From assembly GCF_009914755.1 (NCBI RefSeq), contig NC_060941.1: a DNA stretch of 64,000 nt; one strand, 5' to 3'. Source of the DNA: the human T2T-CHM13v2.0 reference genome, Homo sapiens. Below, in pieces: positions 3,046 through 19,085 of the stretch. The position numbers and the translations under genes are program-made. A model generated the notes under the pieces. The model did no database searches, had not been told where the DNA came from, and saw only the letters and a list, made by a program, of their open reading frames with translations. Positions within the stretch are counted from its first letter, which is position 1. Each line of letters begins with the position of its first letter.

Positions 3046-3949
3046 ATTACATACAATGTTTTCAGCATTTGTAATTTGACATGAAATCCATCTGTTGCAA
3101 TACACTGATTTTCACTTTTCAACTTGAAAACCTGGACATTTATCACTACTCTCCCTTTCTCTTGGTCTAGTCCTTATTTAAAAAAAAAACCTACCAATCT
3201 AAACTAGGATAATTATTTTTCTATAAAACAATTTCAAAGGCATTTAAAAAATTTAACAATTTTTAAACTTTCTATGTCAATGATTTTAAACTGCGGTCTC
3301 TCAAAACAAATCCAATACCTTTAGTAGGAAAAATTATGTTAATTCCTACACTATCATTGGGTCTAGCCAAGAGTTGATATTAATAGATATGCTTATTTAT
3401 TACCTTGTTCTAACAGTTGTAGTGTAAGTCTTGAAAATCAAGTAAAAATTTGTAAAGATTATAATCGCACAAACTCCCTCTCTCATGAGGCACACAGTTA
3501 ATCCAAAATATTATTTCTAACTTACCATAAAGCCAACAAGTAAATACAATGTAGTGTTTAAAAATAATCATAAGTATATTCTAGAAATGAAACATTAATT
3601 GATACTATTTATTGAATATCTCATATTTATTTACATAGAAACAAAGGAATCAAAAGCATATTATGTAACATTGAAATGACTAAAAATACTTGAGATAGCA
3701 TTGCTACATAAATGCTATGTAAATGCTGACAAAAGTAAAAATGCCATTCGCTACATTTGCTAAACATACTGTGACACATTATAAGTATTTTAAAGATATA
3801 TCACTAATGCTTGGGTCAAGTGGGCAAAAATGATTCTAAGTATTTAATTGTGGAAAAATTTAGTGCAGGGGATAGTATTCATGTGATGGAAAAATTTTAA
3901 GTGGAACTCAGAGATTAGAAGCAGCAGGAAGTTTTAATAACGTACCAGG

Positions 3950-4985: not shown

Positions 4986-6775
4986 CCTGTAATTTTGCCT
5001 AACCTATGCCCAGTCACTGATGCACCTGTATGGTACTTCATGGCCCCCTTAGAGCTTAGAACCTGGGTTTCATTCCTGCTCTACAGCTATATAATTTAAC
5101 AATTTTCTTCTGAATTTGTTGGATTCTAACCCTATGCTTCTAAAATTTTATTAATATTACTGAATCTTAAAGGGAGCTTTAAGATGTCTTTAGTCTTTAG
5201 AAATACTAAACCTATAAACAAAGGACTATATGAAGTTAAAACTGTATTCAAATTTCTACATGTTTTAAGACACTGAGGCAACGTATTAAGAAACACACCT
5301 AAGACAATCAATCTACTCTGGACAAAAATTTAGATATGGTCTCTTCTAAATAAGCTACCTAGTGGTATTTATACATATTCTTCCTTATATCAACCGTATC
5401 TTACATGCTCATAGCCTTAAAAATAACTAAAAAGTGTCAGAATTATAGGCCTTACACATTTCTGTTGGCTTGAAAAATGATACAAAATGCATAAACTTCT
5501 AGAGTGATCAGTTTAAAAAAGGAGTTCATACCAAAGGTAGTAATACTAGGAATCAAAGAGGGCTAAACTCTGCAGGTTTTTAAAGGTGAAAGTTAATAAA
5601 ACCTTGTTTTTCATTGTGAATCTTTGCCTTACAACATTATACACATGATTCTTCCCCCTTCTTTTTCCTCTTGCAAAGATGTGGTGATGAACCCTTTGCT
5701 CATGCAGATGACAATACTCTTGAAAATGGTGGCAGAGAAAAAAAATGAAGGGAATATGGTTCACTTAATCATCTCATAAATTAGAACTTATTACCCCTGT
5801 GACTCCTGAATAGCTCCAGAAAAAATATGTGAGAGACATGAAATGGCTGTTTGCTACCAATATTTTATGTGATGCTTCATTTTTTGATTCCTTGAAGAAC
5901 ACAACGCATTAGCCCATTTATGCGAGAGGTTGCAACTTTTTGAATTTTTGCATAAGTGAAAAATTAGACCTTGTCGATGACATTTAGCAGTAGGATACAA
6001 GTAATTCCCACGTGCTTGGCGTGGAACACTAGGCATAAGTGGGTTAACACAATTACGAAAGCATAGCTATTCAAGTAACTAATTATACAACTGACTTTTT
6101 TTTCCTCATCTCTAAAACATAGGGATCAGTTATTTAAAAAACACAGTGACAAGTATTTTATTTTTAACTCAGTTTTGGTTTGTTAAGGGCGTTGCTTGGC
6201 ATAAAAAAAACAAAAACAGGAGGAGAAACAAGAATACAAACATGACATAGAAGCAGTAGCAAAAGAAAATGAAGAGTATCAAGAAAATGAGAAGAAAATA
6301 CACAATGGAAGAAAGGAAAAAGAACAGGTGTGGGAATTAAAAGGCCTATTATGATACCTTTTATCCCCTCCTCGATTCATAAAATTTGAGTAACTCCAAG
6401 AGTATCACAACAAAAAACAAGCAAAAGGATACACAAATAGTCACCCCCTAAATTTGGTTAGGAATGAGATAATGCTGCCACTCAAGCCTAGCTCGGGCAC
6501 CAGCAGGAGGAGGGCACCCTCCAGAGACTGCAGGAGAAGGGGGAGGACTCCTCTTTGCCCTATATGTACCACCACCACTGCCACCGAGGCCTTCGTTACA
6601 ACACCCACAGGTTCCTCCCCACCCCAGAACGGGATGGGCCCTGCAGTGCTCCTACTCCCCCTTCCCAGCCCCCAGACTTCCTACTGCTACCACCACTAGC
6701 GCCGATGCCAATACAACCACTGTCACCCTCAATGTACCAGCCCACCCTACCAGGCTCCTACCACCTGGTCCCCGT

Positions 6776-6925
6776 GGGTGCCCTCCTACCGCTCCAGTTG
6801 AGCTGCAGTCTCCATCTCTACCACCAACTTCATGAGGCAAGTTTCAGAGCCATGTCATCTGCTCGACCATACCACTGGCGACTCCTCCTTCTCCTCCTGC
6901 AGCCTGGCTTGGAGCAGCTGGGCAG
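6776..6925 (+). repeat. isolated diverged ACRO1-like satellite unit
   Basis: ccctcctaccgctccagttgagctgcagtctcc...ccaccaac...gagcagct aligns by eye with the units at 8128-8420. Confidence 0.55.
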
Positions 6926-7529
6926 GCAAAGCTAGAAAAGCCCAAAACGGGACTCAGGGAGTGCAACCGTTAGAGCCTCACCTTGTCATGCTGGTGACTG
7001 GGTTTCAGGGATCAGTTTCATTGAAGGCACTCACACCCACTTCCAAAGTCCAGCCTCTCCTCTTCTGGCAAAAGCTGGCCAGGAACTGGGGCCTGGGGTG
7101 GGAGTGAGTGCCTTCACTGAAACCAGCCCCTGGCCAAGTCCAGCTGGCCAGGAATTGCTGGGCCCACCAAGGCTGCCCTCCTCAGGGAGCCTGAGTAGGA
7201 GAAACTCAGACCCAGCCAGCCCTCCCCACCCAAGAGCTGGTTCCCTTTCCTGACACCTCCACCCAAAGTGCCCTGTCCCCCACTTCCCCCATGGTGCCTC
7301 CTACTACCTACCCGGTAGTCCCAGGTGGTCTTCCCAACACAGAGCATGAGGGCGGGCCAGAAAACCACAGTGGGTGTGGGGGCCCTGCCCTGCAATCTAG
7401 CTCGAGCGGGAGAAAATTGCCTTCTAGAGTCTGGCATCTGAGAAGAGAACGATCCCTTACTTGGAGACCACCAGAAGAAGGAGGCCACTGCTGTCACTGC
7501 CGCCACCACCTCCTCAGCTCGCCAGCGCC

Positions 7530-8100
7530 ACTGGCAGTGTAGCCCCCATAGCACCCCTAATCTGCCCCCTGCCACTAGTAGTGTAGCCCCCGGATAGCAC
7601 ATCCAACACACCCTAGTTTCAGGCAATGTAACCCCAATATCCCCCTAAAGCACTCCCTCCACACCTCAGGGAGCATAACACCCGGTAGTTCTCACAATCT
7701 GACCCAGCCACAGGCAGTTCAGCTCCTGATGGCGCACTCCCCAGTCACAGGCAGTGCAGCACCCAACAACGCCCCTAAACCACCGCCCACTGCCAGCATT
7801 GTAGCCCCGGATAACTCCACCCAACCCACCCCCTGCCGCGGGTAGTGCAGCAGAAGATAGTGCCCCTAATCCTTCCCCAGCCACCTGCAGTACACATTAG
7901 TGTACACAATCTGCCTCCCCGACACCACCCCTGCCACCATGGGCTGTATAGCCCCGGATAGCCAGCCAACCTGCCCCACTACCAGCAATGCAACACTGGA
8001 GAGTGCCCCCAACCAGACCACTGCCACAGGCAGAGTAGCCTCTAGCAGTGAGCGCCAATAGGACACCCAACCCTTGTCCCCAGAGGCATACGGGGCAGCC
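7530..8100. repeat. degenerate C-rich ~44-bp minisatellite, about 12 copies
   Basis: recurring ggcagtgtagccccggatagcgcccccaacc...ccctgcc anchors near 7534, 7577, 7622, 7713, 7750, 7795, 7841, 7942, 7985 and 8029. Confidence 0.85.
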
Positions 8101-8127
8101 TCAGAAAACTCACCTACCCCATCACAT

Positions 8128-8420
8128 TTCTACCACTGTGGCCGAGCTGCAGTCTCTGACGTCACCACCAACCACAGCGAGGTAAGCCACGGTGGCACAG
8201 GCTCCAGCCTCCAGCATGTGGCGGTTCCTCTTCGTTCTAGTCCTCCAGCCCAGCAGGAGAAGCTCCTGCTGCCGGCTGCCCTCCTACTGCTCTCTCGCCA
8301 CCACCAACCGCAGCGAGGTAGTGTCCCAGGCTCCAGGCTCCATCCATCCTCCAGTCTCCAGCAAGCGGAAGGTTGCGGCCTCTTCCAGTTTTCTAAGTTG
8401 GGCACAGAGCAGCTCCTCTG
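8128..8420 (+). repeat. two tandem ACRO1-like satellite units (~136 bp period)
   Basis: caccaccaacc(a/g)cagcgagg at about 8163 and 8299, each followed by caggctccag...ctccagc; family name from recall. Confidence 0.6.
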
Positions 8421-8457
8421 CTTGGCACAGAAGAGCCTGAAATGACGTGACACGACC

Positions 8458-8720
8458 TCAGCATGCTTTATATACCGAGGTTAATGCAAATGTGGTTCCT
8501 GGACTACATGTTCTGATAGGACGAGAAAAAAACCTCTAGGCCTACTCTGATTGGACTTTATTTTCATGCTGTGATTTGTTGTGTTAAGACTTGCTCTCAT
8601 CCAATTACAACATTATAATAAAGTCCAATCAGAGTAAGCCTGGAGGTTTTTTCTCATCTACTCAAAACATGCAGCCCAGGAACCCTCCTGGGCATAACTG
8701 CAGTATATAAATGATGCTGA
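8458..8720. promoter_or_regulatory. palindromic bidirectional Pol II promoter-like element
   Basis: arms 8458-8578 and 8601-8720 are reverse complements; TATATAAA on - (8467-8474) and + (8704-8711); CCAAT at 8550-8554(-), 8601-8605(+) and 8625-8629(+); octamer ATGCAAAT at 8484-8491. Confidence 0.7.
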
Positions 8721-8774
8721 AGAGGGATGAGGTTTTTTCGGGTTCATGTATCTTCCTGTGGAGTTGCTCGGTGT

Positions 8775-8898
8775 AGAGGACTAGGAATCAGGAGTCACTG
8801 GCCTCCTATGCTAGGGGCTGGAGCCGTGGGAGCGGCGGCTCACCTCGCTGTGGTTGTTGGCAGCGACGGAGCTGGCAGCGCGGCTGGAGTGGTAGGAG
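8775..8898 (-). repeat. inverted ACRO1-like unit
   Basis: reverse complement reads ctcctaccactccagccgcgctgccagctccgtcgctgccaacaaccacagcgaggtgagcc...ggctccagcc. Confidence 0.65.
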
Positions 8899-8899
8899 A

Positions 8900-10122
8900 C
8901 GGAAAACAGTTTTAGGATAGATGGAGGGGAGTAAAGAGGGTAGATAGTGCCAAAGGGAAAAAAAGGTAGCTTAGTCAGAGAAGGAGTTGCAAAAAGGTGG
9001 TAGTGAAAAGATGGTGGGGGAAAAAGTTTTTGGGTAGATGGAGGCAGAAAAACAGGGTGGGGAGTGGGAAGGAAGGAAGGTTTTGCAGAAAGACGGTGGG
9101 TAAAAAGTTTAAAGGTAGATGGAGGGGGAAAAGAGGGCGTCAAGTGGGAGGAGGAAAAAGAGGGAGATGATGGGGGAAAACGGGGGTGAGCAGTAGGGAG
9201 AGAAGGTTTCGTGAAAAGATGGTGGGGTGAAAATAGAGTGGGGGGGGAAGGTTTTTGGGTAGAGGAGCAAAAGAGGGCAGCAAGTGGGAGAAGGAAAAAG
9301 AGGGTAGCCAGCAGGAGGAAGACAAAGTTTTGTGAAAAGACAGTGGCAGAAAAGAAAGACCATGGACAAAGAAAAGACGGTGGGTGAAAAGTGTTTCGAT
9401 AGATGGAGGGGGGAAAGAGGGTGACGAGGAAAGAGGGTAGCAAGAGGGAGCAGGGATAGAGGGTTGGGAAAACGACGGAAAAATAATTTGGGGTAGATGG
9501 AGGGCAAAAAAGAGGGTGGCAAGCAGGATGGGGAAAGAAGAGCATGAGCGGTAAAGGGAGGAGACTTTGAAAAGATGGTGGGGAAAGTTTTTGGGGGTAG
9601 ATGGAGGGGGAAAAGATGGAGGTGAGCAGGAGTGGGGAGAAGGCTTTGTGAAAAGACGGGGGGTGGAAATGTTTTTGGGTAGATGGAGAAGGGAAAGAGA
9701 ATGGCAAGGAGGAACGGGGGAAAGATGATGATGAGAACAGTTTTTGGGTGGATGAAGGGGAAAAGAGGTTGGTGAGCAGCAGGAGTGGGGAGAAGGTTTA
9801 GGGAAAAGACGGGGGAAAATGTTTTTGCTTAGATGAAGGAGCAAAAGAGGGTGGTGAGAGTGGGAGGGGGAAAAAGAGGGTGGCCAGGGTAAGGGGAAAA
9901 GACGGTGGGAAGAAACTGGGGAAAGGGTTTGGGTAGATGGATGGGGAAAAGAGTGTTGAGCAGGAGAGTAGAGAAGGCTTTGTGAAATGAGGGTGGGCAA
10001 AAAATGGTGAAGTTTGGGGGCAGATGGCAGAAGAAAAAGGGTGGCGAGAGGGAGGGGGCTAAAGGCGGTCGGGAAAAGAAGGTAGGGAAATAATTTTGGG
10101 GGACAAAGGTTTGGGGTAGATT
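8900..10122. repeat. G/A-rich degenerate tandem array (units about 70-140 bp)
   Basis: tttttgggtagatggagggggaaaagaggg-like anchor recurs 13 times (8918, 9035, 9116, 9260, 9400, 9494, 9598, 9680, 9749, 9830, 9934, 10021, 10117). Confidence 0.9.
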
Positions 10123-10129
10123 TTTTAAA

Positions 10130-10240
10130 ATAAGATTATTTGTATTTTTGATTTTGATGAGTTCTTTATTTTGTGTATGAACCCCTTGCCTGATGCATAG
10201 TTTGCAAATACTTGCTTCCATTCTCTGGGTTGTTTCTTCA
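10130..10240 (-). mobile_element. L1 ORF2 fragment
   Basis: gagttctttattttgtgtatgaaccccttgcctgatgcatagtttgcaaata. Confidence 0.7.
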
Positions 10241-10262
10241 TTTTTAAAAAATTTTAATTTAA

Positions 10263-10550
10263 TTTTTTTTTGACGGAGTCTTGCTCTGTCGCCCAGGTTC
10301 AGTGCAGTGGCACAATCTCTGCTCAATGCAAGCTCTGCCTCCTGGGTTCACACCATTTTCCTGCCTGGGCCTCCTGAGTAGCTGGAACTACAGGCGCCTG
10401 CCACCACGCCAGGACACTTTTTTTGTATTTTTAGTAGAGACGGGGTTTCACCGTGTTAGCCAGGATGGTCTCGATCTCCTGATCTCGTGATCCGCTGGCC
10501 TCGGCCTCCCAAAGTGCTGGGATTACAGGCGTGAGCCACTGTGCCTGGCC
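10263..10550 (-). mobile_element. AluY
   Basis: full-length Alu with gcaagctctgcctcc, ttcacaccatt and ccgtgttagccaggatgg diagnostics. Confidence 0.93.
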
Positions 10551-10779
10551 TTGAAACATAACTTTATTTTTTATTTTTGTATTTGTATATATACTTTAGT
10601 AGCCCTGAGTTTTAATAAAGTTGCCTTTAAAATATGTATCTTATTTTTCAGAAATATACCCTAAGGCATGTGATTAGTTGGGTGGCATGTTCTTTAGTTT
10701 TTACAATTGAAGGATTGTCATTCCTTTATACAAAAAAAGTGAATTTTTATCATATGCTAGAGGAAAGAAGGTAGATACT

Positions 10780-11025
10780 AAATAAATACTGTATGCTTCC
10801 ATGTAGATAAAATTTGAAATTATATAAAGACACAATACCTTAAACTTTTCTGGGGTTAAAGTGGGGAATTTCATTGGCAAAGTTCATGCAATAAATGTGT
10901 AGGTGAAGGGAACATTCCATATTTGATTATGTAGGTGATTATCAAGCTTTATAAATTTATAAAACTGAACTGGACTAAAATGTGTGCCTTACACGCAAAT
11001 TATAATTCTATAAAATTGATTAAAA
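10780..11025 (+). mobile_element. old L1M 3' fragment
   Basis: aaatactgtatgcttccat...gcaaattataattctataaaattgattaaaa. Confidence 0.5.
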
Positions 11026-14000
11026 CTAGTTAGATAAGAGAGAATCAAGGGGAAAAGAGAAAAGGCACGTGAAAAAATAATGCCAATGCACTAGAATTAT
11101 CTTTGATGACATTAAATATAGCCTGGTCTTCTCTTAATTCTTTTTAAAATTAATGTAGATTTCTCAATCCTTTGATACTTTTTCCTGAACGCATCTTATA
11201 TTCTCATACATGTTAATGTATGGCTACATAGGAGAGGATTCTTTTACAGCTGGACTGGAACAGCTTGATATTTATATCTAGAGATGCATTGGAAACATAA
11301 CACTGACCCGTGAGCAAGATGAAAATGGCATGTGCTAGTGATTCATTAATATGTTGCTTTAAGTTTAGTGCCAACTGGTCTACATCGTTGAGAATGTTTA
11401 GTTTGATGGTTTACACAACTTGACTTAAGAAGTGTATGACCAACAGTGTATGAGAGAGCCTGCTATAAAGACTTTTCTGCACTTCCCTTAAATTATTATA
11501 GTAAGCTCAAATCTTGAAGGTTCAGAATATACAGATAAAATGTGTCCGTGAGGCTGAGAAAGGATCTTTAGGGAGAAAGGCTCTGTTCCTGAAAGACAGA
11601 CTTTCAATGATTTCCTGCATTTTATTTCTGTTCTAGTTTACCTTTACCTTTATTAATCACTAATAAGGTGGTTCTTATAGGGCCTCATAGGCCTTTTTAG
11701 TTTTCCAACCTATTCATACTTAGTGCAAACCTAGTAATTTTTTGCATGATAGTATTGGGATTTTACTCTGAGGCTAGGCTTCACACTGTAAAAACATCTT
11801 TTTGGAATTGTATCATTTTCAGTCTTTCCATCGTGTTCCACTGTCCCAGCCACACACACACCAGATATGAAGACTACAAGCAACCTCAAAAAGTAACCCA
11901 TCTATAGTAGATGTTTTTACCTCTTGTGAAATCTAAGGAAAATATACTAAAAATGAAGGCATCAGTAAAACAGTATCATTTTAGGTTGACCTCGAGCATT
12001 TCAACATCAGTCTAACTTCAGAATAATACATTAGCAAGGAGAAATGGGGTACTTTTGTGGTTTTTTACACCTGTTATTTCAATTGAAATTGAAAAAAAAA
12101 ACTAATTTGAACTAACCATAAAAGGAAGGTTTTATCAGTATTGAAATAAAATAACAGAAAATGCATTTGTGGGTCTGACCTCAGGACCGATTTTAAATAG
12201 TCAATCCCTCTAACTCTCATTCCCCTTTCTCTGAGCATTAGCTTTATTCTTATTCCATCTTACTTGATGTGGCACTGACAGATACAGACTCGTTCTTACA
12301 ACATATACCATCAGAAGTGAAACCTTCACACTCTCCAACTCTTGAAAAATCTGAGATGCACTTTGACTATTCTCAGATTATGGGTATATTACTTGGATCA
12401 AAAAGTACTGCACAGGGAAGTAGATACTGTAATCTCTGACATTACAGTTTCAAGGTTGGAGTGAGAAAGGGATAGCTCCCTAACAAGGGAGTATCATAGA
12501 AATGATATTTTCATGGTCATACTTCTGTGAACTAGGCAGACATCCCTTCATGTCAACTACATCTCTACTCTACTTTGAACAGATAAATATCCTTGCATAT
12601 ACAAAATTATGCAGTAGTGTAAGCATGACTTTTCATTAAAATTTAAGCAAAACAGTCTATTTAGGTGAATACATACTGATACAGGAGATAGTTCTGCTTG
12701 AATGATCTTTACCCTTGGGGAGAGATACATAAAAGAATGTCATACTTTATTATGATATGACTATCCAGCATATTTATGAGTAAACTTTCATAATACCTTT
12801 CTCTATTGTCTAAAATAAGCACAAAAACCCTTTTAGTTAATTAATATCCCTTTTTAATATACAGAATAAATAGAAAATAGCACAAAAGGTATTATGCCAG
12901 CACACAGAAATAGTTCCAGTTAAAAGTCAATCCTGTATTTTGAGAACTTGACAAAATCATAATTGAAAATAGTGTACTATCTTACATGCAGATGTTGTGT
13001 AATCAGGGACATCCAAATCAACTTACATCCAAATATTTCACAATTAGTTTTTGAAATATTCTGTGAAGTATTATAAAACCAGGCCCTCAGGAATATAAAA
13101 GCACAAAGGGAGCCAGGACTCCAAATAGCCATTTATTCATTTCCTAAGGTTAGGTACAATGAGGACTGCATTTTTAACATTATCAGGGCCATAGAGACAT
13201 TGGAGCTTAAGGATAAGATCCAATTTCATAGCAGTCTGTTAAAGTTTAAGCCAGTCTAATGACCCAAATGTTCACCATAATAATTACCATCTTGAGTGAT
13301 GATGTTATGAATACAAAGGAACACTGCATCTCTAAAATAAACTACGTTTATATGACATGAGACCAATTTGATGGAAAGAAGGCAAAACTGTGAATGGTAA
13401 TTTTGTTTTAATTGTTTTCATTGTGTGTACTCATCTGAAAATATAATACCATGTAATTAGAAAAGTTATCATAACAGAAAATAGACTGGAACCTTAACTT
13501 TTTATATCAAATGTTCTGCACACGAATATGGCCTCCTACTGATGATCTATGGCTCCAAAATATTGGTAGCTATAATTATGCTTTGTAAAACAGAAGCTGT
13601 GAATGTCTTACTACATAAAGACACAAAGAATCATTTCCTTACTCATTCACTGCTAGTAGACCCTGAGGCACAGCATTTCCTGCCCAGATACCTGATTATT
13701 AATCCAGTTTTTGTTAGGGGTACACTAACGTTAACTAACGGAGATTGGTGTTTAAACCAGTTAATGTAAAGAAATGCTGTAGGAACTGAAATATTCCTTT
13801 TAAATTAACAAAAGTGTTCTTTCTAGATAGTCAAAGTTACATGAGGACCCAACTGTATACCAGAAAATCATTTGATGAATATGGAATTAATAAAATAATG
13901 TTTTGTTGTATGGTTTTAGTACTTTGTTGGTGCCAGGTTAAAGACATGTGGCCCTAGATAGGATAACTCTACAGAAGAGAATTTAATTTGTTTGCCTGCT

Positions 14001-18546: not shown

Positions 18547-19085
<539 letters not shown>

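What the first reader, a model, noticed from the sequence alone, without database searches (positions are those of the whole stretch)
8281..8898. ~620-bp palindrome forming a self-inverted bidirectional promoter between ACRO1-like units
Seen: the left arm reads tcagcatgctttatataccgaggttaatgcaaatgtggttcctggactacatgttctgataggacgagaaaaaaacctctaggcctactctgattggactttatt (from 8458). The reverse complement of 8601-8720 reads tcagcatcatttatatactgcagttatgcccaggagggttcctgggctgcatgttttgagtagatgagaaaaaacctccaggcttactctgattggactttatt. Symmetry continues more loosely outward to ctcctac (8281) and gtaggag (ending 8898), about the same axis near 8589. Each arm has an outward-facing TATATAAA with CCAAT boxes upstream. 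Inference: a single TATA/CCAAT promoter plus its first exon was duplicated head-to-head, giving a divergent transcription unit in otherwise inert repeat DNA.
Basis: partly seen in the sequence, partly recalled or inferred. Interest (0 to 1): 0.82.

Follow-up and report, generated by a model that had tools for sequence, protein, structure and literature searches.

The report
Known palindromic two-way promoter repeat
This is one partly decayed, unannotated copy of a known human repeat whose mirror-image core serves as a two-way gene start site at dozens of other places, including cancer-testis genes, so it is real but not new.

Summary
The palindrome is real. The inner arms 8458-8576 and 8603-8720 are about 79-81% complementary (BLAST E 8e-22; hairpin z -11.95, 0 of 200 shuffles). 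It is not a local event. At least 45 places in the reference carry the same core. A tree splits all left arms from all right arms on one branch, so the head-to-head duplication predates the family. In 23 of 39 aligned paralogues, RefSeq gene 5' ends fall inside the element (30 ends, 29 pointing outward, 0.47 expected). Genes starting there include POTEE, POTEF, BAGE5, RFPL2, SLC5A4-AS1, CCDC144NL-AS1 and UBBP4. The literature describes such a family: REP522, "~1.8 kb, largely palindromic", enriched at cancer-activated CAGE promoters and present at the BAGE locus. I could not test the name against a repeat library. The window copy has no annotated transcript, keeps both TATA boxes and its splice donors, has lost 3 of 6 CCAAT boxes, and has long private branches. 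The "ACRO1-like" label for the flanks is unverified. Verdict: a known kind and a probably silent copy.

The parts
8458..8576 (-). Left inner arm of the palindrome. It is the promoter for minus-direction transcription.
   Evidence: 79% complementary to 8603-8720, E 8e-22.
8577..8602 (.). Unpaired centre; the axis is at about 8589.5.
8603..8720 (+). Right inner arm. It is the promoter for plus-direction transcription.
8470..8477 (-). TATATAAA box on the minus strand, intact.
   Evidence: A strict TATA is present in 23 of 39 paralogues at this position.
8706..8713 (+). TATATAAA box on the plus strand, intact.
   Evidence: A strict TATA is present in 24 of 39 paralogues.
8484..8491 (+). Octamer-type motif in the left arm. 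The mirror position 8682-8700 has none in this copy.
   Evidence: intact in 13 of 39 paralogues on the left and 4 of 39 on the right.
8550..8554 (-). CCAAT box, left middle, intact.
   Evidence: intact in 37 of 39 paralogues.
8601..8605 (+). CCAAT box, right inner, intact.
   Evidence: intact in 28 of 39 paralogues.
8625..8629 (+). CCAAT box, right middle, intact.
   Evidence: intact in 29 of 39 paralogues.
8512..8524 (-). Left outer CCAAT position, disrupted in this copy.
   Evidence: intact in 37 of 39 paralogues, not in the window.
8574..8587 (-). Left inner CCAAT position, disrupted in this copy.
   Evidence: intact in 29 of 39 paralogues, not in the window.
8652..8667 (+). Right outer CCAAT position, disrupted in this copy.
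   Evidence: intact in 32 of 39 paralogues, not in the window.
8288..8443 (-). Minus-direction first-exon equivalent. The start is at about 8443, 34 nt past the TATA box. The mirror donor-like GTAGGAG is on the minus strand at 8287-8281.
   Evidence: 8 paralogue 5' ends map to 8430-8460, including POTEE, BAGE5 and LOC101930665. One search shows the mirror heptamer. No exon table was available to show that this donor is used.
8114..8287 (-). Extension of the minus-direction first exon as annotated in one paralogue. GT donors follow 8114 and 8118 on the minus strand, and both are intact here.
   Evidence: LOC101930665 exon 1 ends map to 8114 and 8118.
8740..8891 (+). Plus-direction first-exon equivalent. 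The start is at about 8740, 34 nt past the TATA box.
   Evidence: The CCDC144NL-AS1 and UBBP4 5' ends map to 8740 and LOC105371703 to 8748. All three exon 1 ends map to 8891.
8892..8898 (+). Splice-donor equivalent GTAGGAG, intact.
8130..8217 (.). Outer inverted-repeat arm, paired with 8808-8895.
   Evidence: 73-75%, E 2e-10.
8808..8895 (.). Outer inverted-repeat arm, paired with 8130-8217. It also holds 8842-8872, which pairs with 8289-8319.
8154..8320 (+). Direct duplication on the left side only (8154-8184 and 8290-8320, 136 bp apart). It offsets the outer symmetry.
   Evidence: family D10, 87%.
7512..8043 (+). C-rich degenerate repeat in the left flank, shared with paralogues.
   Evidence: (family D8).
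8898..10100 (+). G/A-rich degenerate tandem repeat in the right flank.
   Evidence: families D1-D7, spacings mostly 81-153. TRF reports only one 27-bp row; its matches lie beside the same family's copies.

Best explanation
Window 8114-8898 is the centre of one copy of a dispersed repeat that the literature most likely calls REP522. A CCAAT-rich, TATA-containing, CpG-poor promoter with its first exon and splice donor was duplicated head-to-head once, in the ancestor of the family. Segmental duplication then carried the resulting two-way promoter cassette to at least 45 places. At many of those places it starts genes and lncRNAs outward in both directions, about 34 bp past each TATA box. Its three regularly spaced CCAAT boxes per arm are the most conserved part. 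Inferred mechanism: NF-Y binds the CCAAT boxes, TBP binds the TATA boxes, and an octamer factor binds in some copies; the element is normally silenced by DNA or H3K9 methylation in somatic tissue and opens in germline, early embryo and cancer. The window copy arrived inside a block of 10 kb or more shared with the CCDC144NL region at 17p11.2. It keeps its TATA boxes and donors but has lost half of its CCAAT boxes and has no annotated transcript. It is most likely a silent or weak relic. Shown: the palindrome, the family, the single origin, the transcription start sites (TSSs) and donor positions in paralogues, and the motif states. Inferred: the REP522 name, the factors, the silencing, and the inactivity of this copy.
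For: The palindrome is statistically solid. The family is large: 40 places with the 851-bp query plus 5 more with the 181-bp core, and each also matches itself on the opposite strand. Single origin: left and right arms separate on one branch with 100/99 support, 100% of 200 bootstrap trees, and parallel topologies inside each half. Promoter use: 23 of 39 paralogues carry at least one RefSeq 5' end in the aligned 641 bp. There are 30 ends, 29 of them outward, and 7 loci have divergent pairs, against 0.47 ends expected at genome-wide density. The ends cluster at 8430-8460 (8) and 8720-8750 (7). Curated transcripts NR_104185.2, NR_176224.1 and NR_135673.1 share the exon 1 donor at 8891/8892. Further copies abut the 5' ends of SLC5A4, LINC01189 and a BAGE3-like gene. 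The CCDC144NL-AS1 copy overlaps a RefSeq 'H3K27ac-H3K4me1 hESC enhancer'. Conservation peaks over the CCAAT region: the majority fraction is 0.95 at 8510-8589 against 0.71-0.74 in the exon and TSS flanks, and CCAAT is intact in 28-37 of 39 paralogues. [quoted passage not shown] The BAGE locus contains a large REP522 repeat that is H3K9me3-marked in human liver and active in Tc1 mouse liver (PMC3560060, passages). REP522 RNA rises at the 8-cell stage (PMC6545021, passages). REP522 is enriched in lncRNA exons (10.1101/189753, passage). The chr22q12 copies are palindromic across a whole 3.3-kb locus. Decay of this copy: 3 of 6 CCAAT boxes are lost, the private branches are 0.043 and 0.087, and there is no annotation.
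Against: No repeat library (Repbase or Dfam) was available, so the REP522 name rests on a verbal description and on the BAGE link, not on an alignment to the consensus. The window copy is palindromic over only about 263 bp plus short outer arms, not 1.8 kb. Sixteen of 39 paralogues have no annotated 5' end in the element, so many copies may be silent. Some of the 5' ends are Gnomon models that could be inflated by multi-mapping reads. Eleven outward ends lie inside the arms rather than at the TATA-defined positions, three more lie outside the two clusters (equivalents 8364, 8421 and 8556), and one (RFPL2) maps pointing inward, probably because the orientation of that palindromic copy is ambiguous. 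The left/right arm labels were assigned by best match to the window, which favours a clean split to some degree. No expression, methylation or factor-binding data were available for any copy. Absence of annotation in a newly assembled pericentromere does not show silence.
Confidence: 0.8

Rival explanations
1. One reading: this particular copy is an active divergent transcription unit that fires outward from about 8443 (-) and 8740 (+) in testis, embryo, ES cells or cancer.
For: Both TATA boxes, the left octamer, 3 CCAAT boxes and all the mapped splice donors are intact. Close paralogues at 88-89% identity drive curated lncRNAs. One paralogue carries hESC enhancer marks. Pericentromeric T2T-only sequence is under-annotated.
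Against: There is no RefSeq gene or functional element on it (given annotation). Three of the six best-conserved motifs are disrupted. Its private branches are the longest or among the longest in its subfamily. Sixteen of 39 paralogues also lack any annotated start.
Confidence: 0.22
2. The palindrome is the terminal-inverted-repeat structure of a non-autonomous DNA transposon (MITE-like), and promoter use is secondary.
For: The literature calls REP522 an 'unclassified interspersed repeat'. The structure is palindromic and the copies are dispersed on at least 12 chromosomes.
Against: Homology between copies extends for kilobases beyond the palindrome and is colinear with flanking repeats and neighbouring pseudogenes (NF1P, MED15P, NCOR1P). 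That fits segmental duplication. The copies sit in classic duplication zones: pericentromeres, acrocentric short arms, 2q21, 22q11-12, 5q35 and 9q. The symmetry is strongest at the centre, not at the termini. Target-site duplications were not looked for.
Confidence: 0.05
3. It is a structural palindrome that forms hairpins or cruciforms and matters for replication or rearrangement, with no promoter role.
For: The predicted DNA hairpin is very stable (z -11.95). The location is rearrangement-prone pericentromeric DNA.
Against: The arms are only about 80% matched, with a centre of about 26 nt, which disfavours extrusion (recalled knowledge). The conserved columns are the CCAAT boxes rather than pairing as such. 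The arms diverged independently with no sign of compensatory maintenance or inter-arm conversion. Annotated starts cluster at TATA-defined positions.
Confidence: 0.04
4. It is a chance inverted similarity in low-complexity repeat DNA.
For: The surrounding sequence is repetitive and compositionally skewed.
Against: E 8e-22. 0 of 200 shuffles. The same palindrome is present in every one of 33 copies that have both arms.
Confidence: 0.01

Closest known systems
REP522 (RepeatMasker class 'Satellite/telo'), described by Kaczkowski and colleagues as a largely palindromic, roughly 1.8-kb unclassified interspersed repeat
   Same: It is palindromic and dispersed. It overlaps transcription starts of cancer-activated and germline genes and lncRNAs. 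It is present at BAGE loci. Its RNA is seen in the 8-cell embryo and in tumours. The family found here has all the sequence-level properties named in those passages.
   Different: Identity with the REP522 consensus was not tested because no library was available. The window copy is palindromic over only about 263 bp plus short outer arms. Its right flank is a G/A-rich repeat that is not the mirror of its left flank. The six-CCAAT layout, the TSS positions and the shared donor were worked out here. I saw them in no passage, but the main paper (Cancer Res 2016;76:216) and its supplements were not available.
   Same: Both are degenerate tandem repeats near acrocentric or pericentromeric DNA. Some spacings here are near 140-153 bp.
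   Different: TRF finds no 147-bp array. The spacings are irregular, from 16 to 161 (family D1). All 40 scored genomic places for 9560-9960 sit beside this palindrome family, and none is on chr4, where ACRO1 is said to cluster (PMC7714431 section 7). The left flank is a different repeat. The consensus comparison was not possible.
NF-Y-dependent, CCAAT-rich repeat promoters such as LTR12 (recalled, not tested; LTR12C/D activation is mentioned in PMC3560060)
   Same: Both have several CCAAT boxes upstream of a TATA box, are silent in somatic tissue, are active in germline and cancer, and donate first exons to host genes.
   Different: LTR12 is a retroviral LTR and is unidirectional. This element is a palindrome spread by duplication. 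No sequence similarity was tested.
Divergent histone H2A-H2B promoters (recalled)
   Same: Both are compact shared regions of about 300 bp with TATA boxes facing outward, CCAAT boxes in the middle and an octamer just upstream of a TATA box.
   Different: No histone locus appeared among the matches to the core. The exons are unrelated. This is a resemblance of layout only.

Membership tests
REP522 repeat family | Alignment to the Repbase/Dfam REP522 consensus (RepeatMasker call) | not testable with these tools
   No repeat library is offered. The RefSeq soft-mask table carries no family names and does not mask 8281-8898.
REP522 repeat family | About 1.8 kb and largely palindromic | tested here: inconclusive
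   The window copy has a 263-bp palindrome plus 88-nt and 31-nt outer arms. Paralogues are palindromic over about 590-770 bp (L038, L031, L040) and, with their flanking arrays, across 3.3 kb (L040, L039).
REP522 repeat family | Interspersed and multi-copy | tested here: met
   At least 45 places on chromosomes 2, 5, 7, 9, 10, 13, 14, 15, 17, 18, 20, 21 and 22. These are lower bounds because only 40 candidates are scored per call.
REP522 repeat family | Present at the BAGE locus (PMC3560060) | tested here: met
   A copy lies at the BAGE5 5' end (L038) and another at a chr21 'B melanoma antigen 3-like' gene 5' end.
REP522 repeat family | Overlaps transcription start sites (CAGE promoters) | tested here: met
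   Met for the family through RefSeq 5' ends: 23 of 39 paralogues, 30 ends, against 0.47 expected. CAGE itself was not available. It is not met for the window copy, which has no annotated start.
Bidirectional promoter | Two oppositely oriented transcription starts less than 1 kb apart sharing one regulatory region | tested here: met
   Seven of 39 paralogues have annotated divergent pairs, for example POTEF/MED15P9 and RFPL2/SLC5A4-AS1. The modal starts are about 297 bp apart (8443 and 8740). For the window copy itself there is no transcript evidence.
Bidirectional promoter | Demonstrated activity in both directions (reporter or nascent RNA) | not testable with these tools
ACRO1 satellite (flanks) | Tandem 147-bp unit | tested here: not met
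   TRF on 5000-12000 reports one 27-bp row only. The repeat finder gives degenerate units with irregular spacing.
ACRO1 satellite (flanks) | Genomic distribution of ACRO1 (chr4 pericentromere; 6-kb ACRE repeats; PMC7714431) | tested here: not met
   The matches to 9560-9960 lie about 1 kb from copies of this palindrome family, and none is on chr4. Caveat: only 40 of 64 candidates were scored, and common words are skipped.
ACRO1 satellite (flanks) | Alignment to the ACRO1 consensus | not testable with these tools
   No repeat library is available.

The most novel reading that the evidence does not exclude
The core of this repeat is a portable six-CCAAT, double-TATA cassette that has repeatedly created new primate genes wherever duplication dropped it (POTE, BAGE, RFPL, SLC5A4 long forms and dozens of lncRNAs). 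The chr17 pericentromeric copy in this window, visible only in the T2T assembly, would then be a still-unannotated divergent lncRNA pair that fires in early embryo, germline or demethylated tumours, despite having lost half its CCAAT boxes.
Probability: 0.2. Interest if true: 0.4.

Novelty: already known. Interest (0 to 1): 0.25.

Why it matters
The finding shows that a reader working from sequence alone can recover a real promoter architecture. The predicted start sites (8440 minus, 8740 plus) match annotated starts in paralogues to within a few bases. Biologically, the family is a clear case of one duplicated promoter cassette supplying start sites and first exons to many young primate genes and cancer-testis transcripts. 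The motif map made here gives a concrete hypothesis for how it is switched: three spaced CCAAT boxes per arm, TATA boxes 34 bp from the starts, and a shared donor. However, the family and its promoter activity are already in print, and this copy looks like a decaying bystander. Its value is as annotation for a T2T-only pericentromeric region, not as a discovery.

Tried and rejected
Rfam scan of 7000-10500 found no family. TRF gave no array with a 147-bp or any long period. A search for a longer mirror between the left flank (5500-8589) and the right flank (8590-11700) found only the four pairs listed and no similarity between the C-rich and G/A-rich arrays.

I looked for the POTE start codon in the first-exon equivalent of the POTEE copy. 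The ORFs listed did not look like the POTE N-terminus as I recall it, so I dropped the point.

A 20-kb self-genome search meant to size the surrounding duplication scored only 4 of 29,186 candidates. It shows only that chr17:20.81 Mb is colinear with the window from base 1.

Literature: three broad searches were swamped because the term 'pote' also matches 'potential' or were off-topic. Gotea et al. 2013 (PMC3583895, passages) and the T2T repeat preprint (10.1101/2021.07.12.451456, passages) say nothing about this element. The whole-word search POTE/BAGE/bidirectional/pericentromeric gave 4 papers, none relevant by title or abstract. PMC8524813 is listed for REP522 but has no occurrence in its main text. 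PMC7556247 has only a passing mention. Kaczkowski et al. 2016 (Cancer Res) is not held. That paper and Horie et al. 2017 are known to me only through citing passages. Supplements were not opened, and they may hold lists of REP522 promoters that bear on which copies are active.

In searches I found no passage describing the CCAAT/TATA layout or the single-origin tree. That does not show they are unpublished.

PCAT7 was dropped from the list of genes started by the palindrome. Its 5' end lies about 230 bp to the left of the core and reads through it (arithmetic).

Only per-column majority fractions and motif counts were computed.
Full report
Observation. Three tools agree on an inverted repeat centred near 8589. 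The repeat finder gives arms 8527-8581/8598-8652 (85%, 16 nt apart), 8289-8319/8842-8872 (81%) and 8130-8217/8808-8895 (73%). A gapped local alignment extends the inner arms to 8458-8576 against the reverse complement of 8603-8720. BLAST of the left half against the right half gives 79% over 120 columns with E 8e-22, and E 2e-10 and 0.008 for the two outer pairs. As single-stranded DNA, 8458-8720 folds at -63.6 kcal/mol against -24.1 +/- 3.3 for 200 dinucleotide shuffles (z -11.95). The heptamers ctcctac (8281-8287) and gtaggag (8892-8898) mirror each other exactly about 8589.5. Symmetry in between is patchy. A 136-bp direct duplication on the left side only (8154-8184 / 8290-8320) shifts the axis of the outermost pair.

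It is a family, not a local event. The 851-bp region matches 39 other places at 69-88% identity, and each place also matches on the opposite strand, so each is itself palindromic. The 181-bp core finds 5 further places. These are lower bounds because only 40 candidates are scored per call and closed regions are hidden. I aligned the window and 39 paralogues. In the 33 copies that keep both arms, arm-to-arm identity is 78-88%; the window's is 81.2%. In a maximum-likelihood tree of 40 left arms and 33 reverse-complemented right arms, the two kinds separate on a single branch (100/99 support, 100% of 200 bootstrap trees), with parallel branching orders inside each half. The head-to-head duplication therefore happened once, before all sampled copies diverged, and the arms have since evolved independently. 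One caveat applies: arm labels in distant copies were set by best match to the window. The window copy is 88-89% identical over about 3.85 kb to its nearest relatives (chr17:20.8, 21.6, 22.8 and 28.0 Mb; chr7:57.8 Mb; chr20:26.1 Mb; acrocentric short arms). It is colinear with the CCDC144NL region from window base 1, so it arrived by segmental duplication. Under a recalled neutral rate of about 1e-9 per site per year, that divergence implies tens of millions of years; I did not compute a date.

What it does elsewhere. I mapped RefSeq gene 5' ends onto the alignment. Of 39 paralogues, 23 have at least one 5' end inside the aligned 641 bp. There are 30 ends in all, 29 point away from the axis, and 7 loci have divergent pairs, where 0.47 ends would be expected at genome-wide density. 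Eight minus-direction ends fall at window equivalents 8430-8460: POTEE, LOC101930665 and LOC497256 at 8443, BAGE5 at 8435, and others at 8444-8454. Seven plus-direction ends fall at 8720-8750: CCDC144NL-AS1 and UBBP4 at 8740, MED15P9 at 8723, and LOC105371703 at 8748. Results that fit less well: 11 outward ends lie further in, within the arms (for example POTEF at 8501), 3 lie outside the two clusters (8364, 8421 and 8556), and one (RFPL2) maps inward, probably because the orientation of that very symmetric copy is ambiguous. Sixteen paralogues have no annotated start. A Gnomon lncRNA in the other direction has a first exon that ends at the equivalents of 8114 and 8118. All of these donors are intact in the window. 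Additional copies abut the 5' ends of SLC5A4, LINC01189 and a BAGE3-like gene. The CCDC144NL-AS1 copy overlaps a RefSeq 'H3K27ac-H3K4me1 hESC enhancer'.

Anatomy and likely mechanism. Conservation across copies peaks in the middle of the palindrome: the mean majority fraction is 0.95 over 8510-8589, against 0.71-0.74 in the exon and TSS flanks. That stretch holds three CCAAT boxes per arm, 21-35 bp apart, intact in 28-37 of 39 paralogues per position. A strict TATA box is present in 23 and 24 of 39. An octamer-type motif next to the TATA box is present in only 13 (left) and 4 (right) of 39. The POTEE and POTEF copies lack a strict TATA in both arms but keep the CCAAT boxes. The core is CpG-poor (5 CpG in 381 bp, observed/expected 0.29). 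I infer that NF-Y on the CCAAT array is the main driver, that TBP sets the start where a TATA box survives, and that activity is gated by chromatin and DNA methylation. This rests on established knowledge of CCAAT/NF-Y promoters and on the literature below, not on a test here.

This copy. The window copy keeps both TATA boxes, the left octamer and the donors. Three of its six CCAAT positions (within 8512-8524, 8574-8587 and 8652-8667) are disrupted. Its arms have private branches of 0.043 and 0.087, the right one the longest in its 13-member clade. No gene, CAGE cluster, enhancer or promoter feature is annotated on it (given annotation). I therefore rate it as a probably silent or weak relic. 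Annotation of T2T-only pericentromeric DNA is thin, and I could not look at reads.

The flanks. The right flank, 8898 to about 10100, is a G/A-rich, degenerate tandem repeat with irregular 81-153 bp spacing. TRF reports only a 27-bp fragment. Its genomic matches lie next to copies of this same family, and none is on chr4. ACRO1 is described as a 147-bp unit clustered at the chr4 pericentromere within 6-kb higher-order repeats (PMC7714431, passages and section 7). The left flank (7512-8043) is a different, C-rich repeat with no detectable mirror similarity to the right flank. In the chr22q12 copies, by contrast, the left-type repeat sits on both sides in inverted orientation, making the whole 3.3-kb locus palindromic. 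The 'ACRO1-like' label is thus unverified and, on period and distribution, not met. These arrays look like part of the same composite element.

What is known. [quoted passage not shown] Ward et al. report that the BAGE locus on chr21 contains a large REP522 region that is H3K9me3-marked and silent in human liver but transcribed in Tc1 mouse liver (PMC3560060, passages). Yandim and Karakulah report that REP522 RNA rises at the 8-cell stage (PMC6545021, passages). Other passages list REP522 among repeats expressed in ES cells and tumours (PMC11353194), as a proposed cancer marker driving cancer-specific lncRNAs (PMC6925957 citing Horie et al. 2017), as enriched in lncRNA exons (10.1101/189753), and as RepeatMasker class 'Satellite/telo' (PMC4240582). 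According to the abstract of PMC6244393, POTE groups 1 and 2 are testis-specific cancer-testis genes. The family found here is palindromic, dispersed, sits on BAGE and POTE starts and on many lncRNA starts, and so fits that description closely. I could not align it to the REP522 consensus, so I hold the name at about 0.8. I did not see the primary paper (Cancer Res 2016;76:216) or any supplement. Those may already contain the motif layout and the list of active copies.

Verdict. The reading is wrong on where and when the duplication happened, unproven for this copy's activity, and unverified on the ACRO1 context. The kind of element and its promoter role are already published, so I rate novelty as 'already known' and interest as 0.25. 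The boldest reading the evidence leaves open is that this unannotated pericentromeric copy still fires in embryo, germline or tumours. I put that at about 0.2.

Noticed in passing
window 7006-7132: A second, smaller palindrome lies 1.5 kb to the left. Its arms 7006-7040 and 7098-7132 are 83% complementary, and 7015-7123 matches itself in inverted orientation. The chr10 paralogue L034 has an equivalent self-inverted stretch (3585-3692).
   Followed up: no
window 6762-6917: This stretch is the equivalent of an internal exon of the transcribed pseudogene CCDC144NL (chr17:20815364-20815519) when the paralogue is aligned to the window. No gene is annotated here.
   Followed up: partly
L015 and L016 (chr2 POTEE and POTEF copies), equivalents of window 8464-8482 and 8700-8718: The two copies that start protein-coding POTE genes lack a strict TATA box in both arms yet keep the CCAAT boxes. 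This suggests the CCAAT array, not the TATA box, is the essential part.
   Followed up: partly
L023 and L025-L029 (chr9 copies), equivalents of window about 8615-8672 and 8730: Six chr9 copies share one deletion that removes two right-arm CCAAT positions, and they carry a variable T-run expansion just before the plus-direction start. Two of them still have an annotated plus-direction 5' end (L026, L029).
   Followed up: no
L014 (chr17:22.76 Mb, UBBP4 copy), equivalents of window about 8620-8700: Unrelated sequence has replaced most of the right arm upstream of the TATA box. The curated UBBP4 transcript still starts at the 8740 equivalent.
   Followed up: no
L040 and L039 (chr22q12, RFPL2/SLC5A4-AS1 and AP1B1P1 copies): These copies are palindromic across the whole 3.3 kb fetched, with C-rich tandem repeats on both sides in mirror orientation. 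They may be closest to the original form of the element.
   Followed up: partly
window 10263-10551 and 18775-19060: Two roughly 290-bp stretches resemble each other and also flank the chr9:100.09 and 100.27 Mb copies on both sides in opposite orientations. The first lies in a masked repeat at 10189-10598. By its length it is probably an Alu, but this was not checked.
   Followed up: no
window 8898-10100 and 7512-8043: Transcripts from either predicted start would run into purine/G-rich RNA. The right flank is G/A-rich on the plus strand and the left flank is C-rich on the plus strand. Boots et al. report that C/A-rich ACRO1 RNA blocks Pol II in cis while its reverse complement does not (PMC7714431). 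Whether these flanks matter for elongation is unknown.
   Followed up: no
chr9:106723923 (PCAT7) relative to L023: The PCAT7 5' end lies about 230 bp to the left of the palindrome core, and the transcript reads through it rather than starting at a TATA-defined position (arithmetic).
   Followed up: partly
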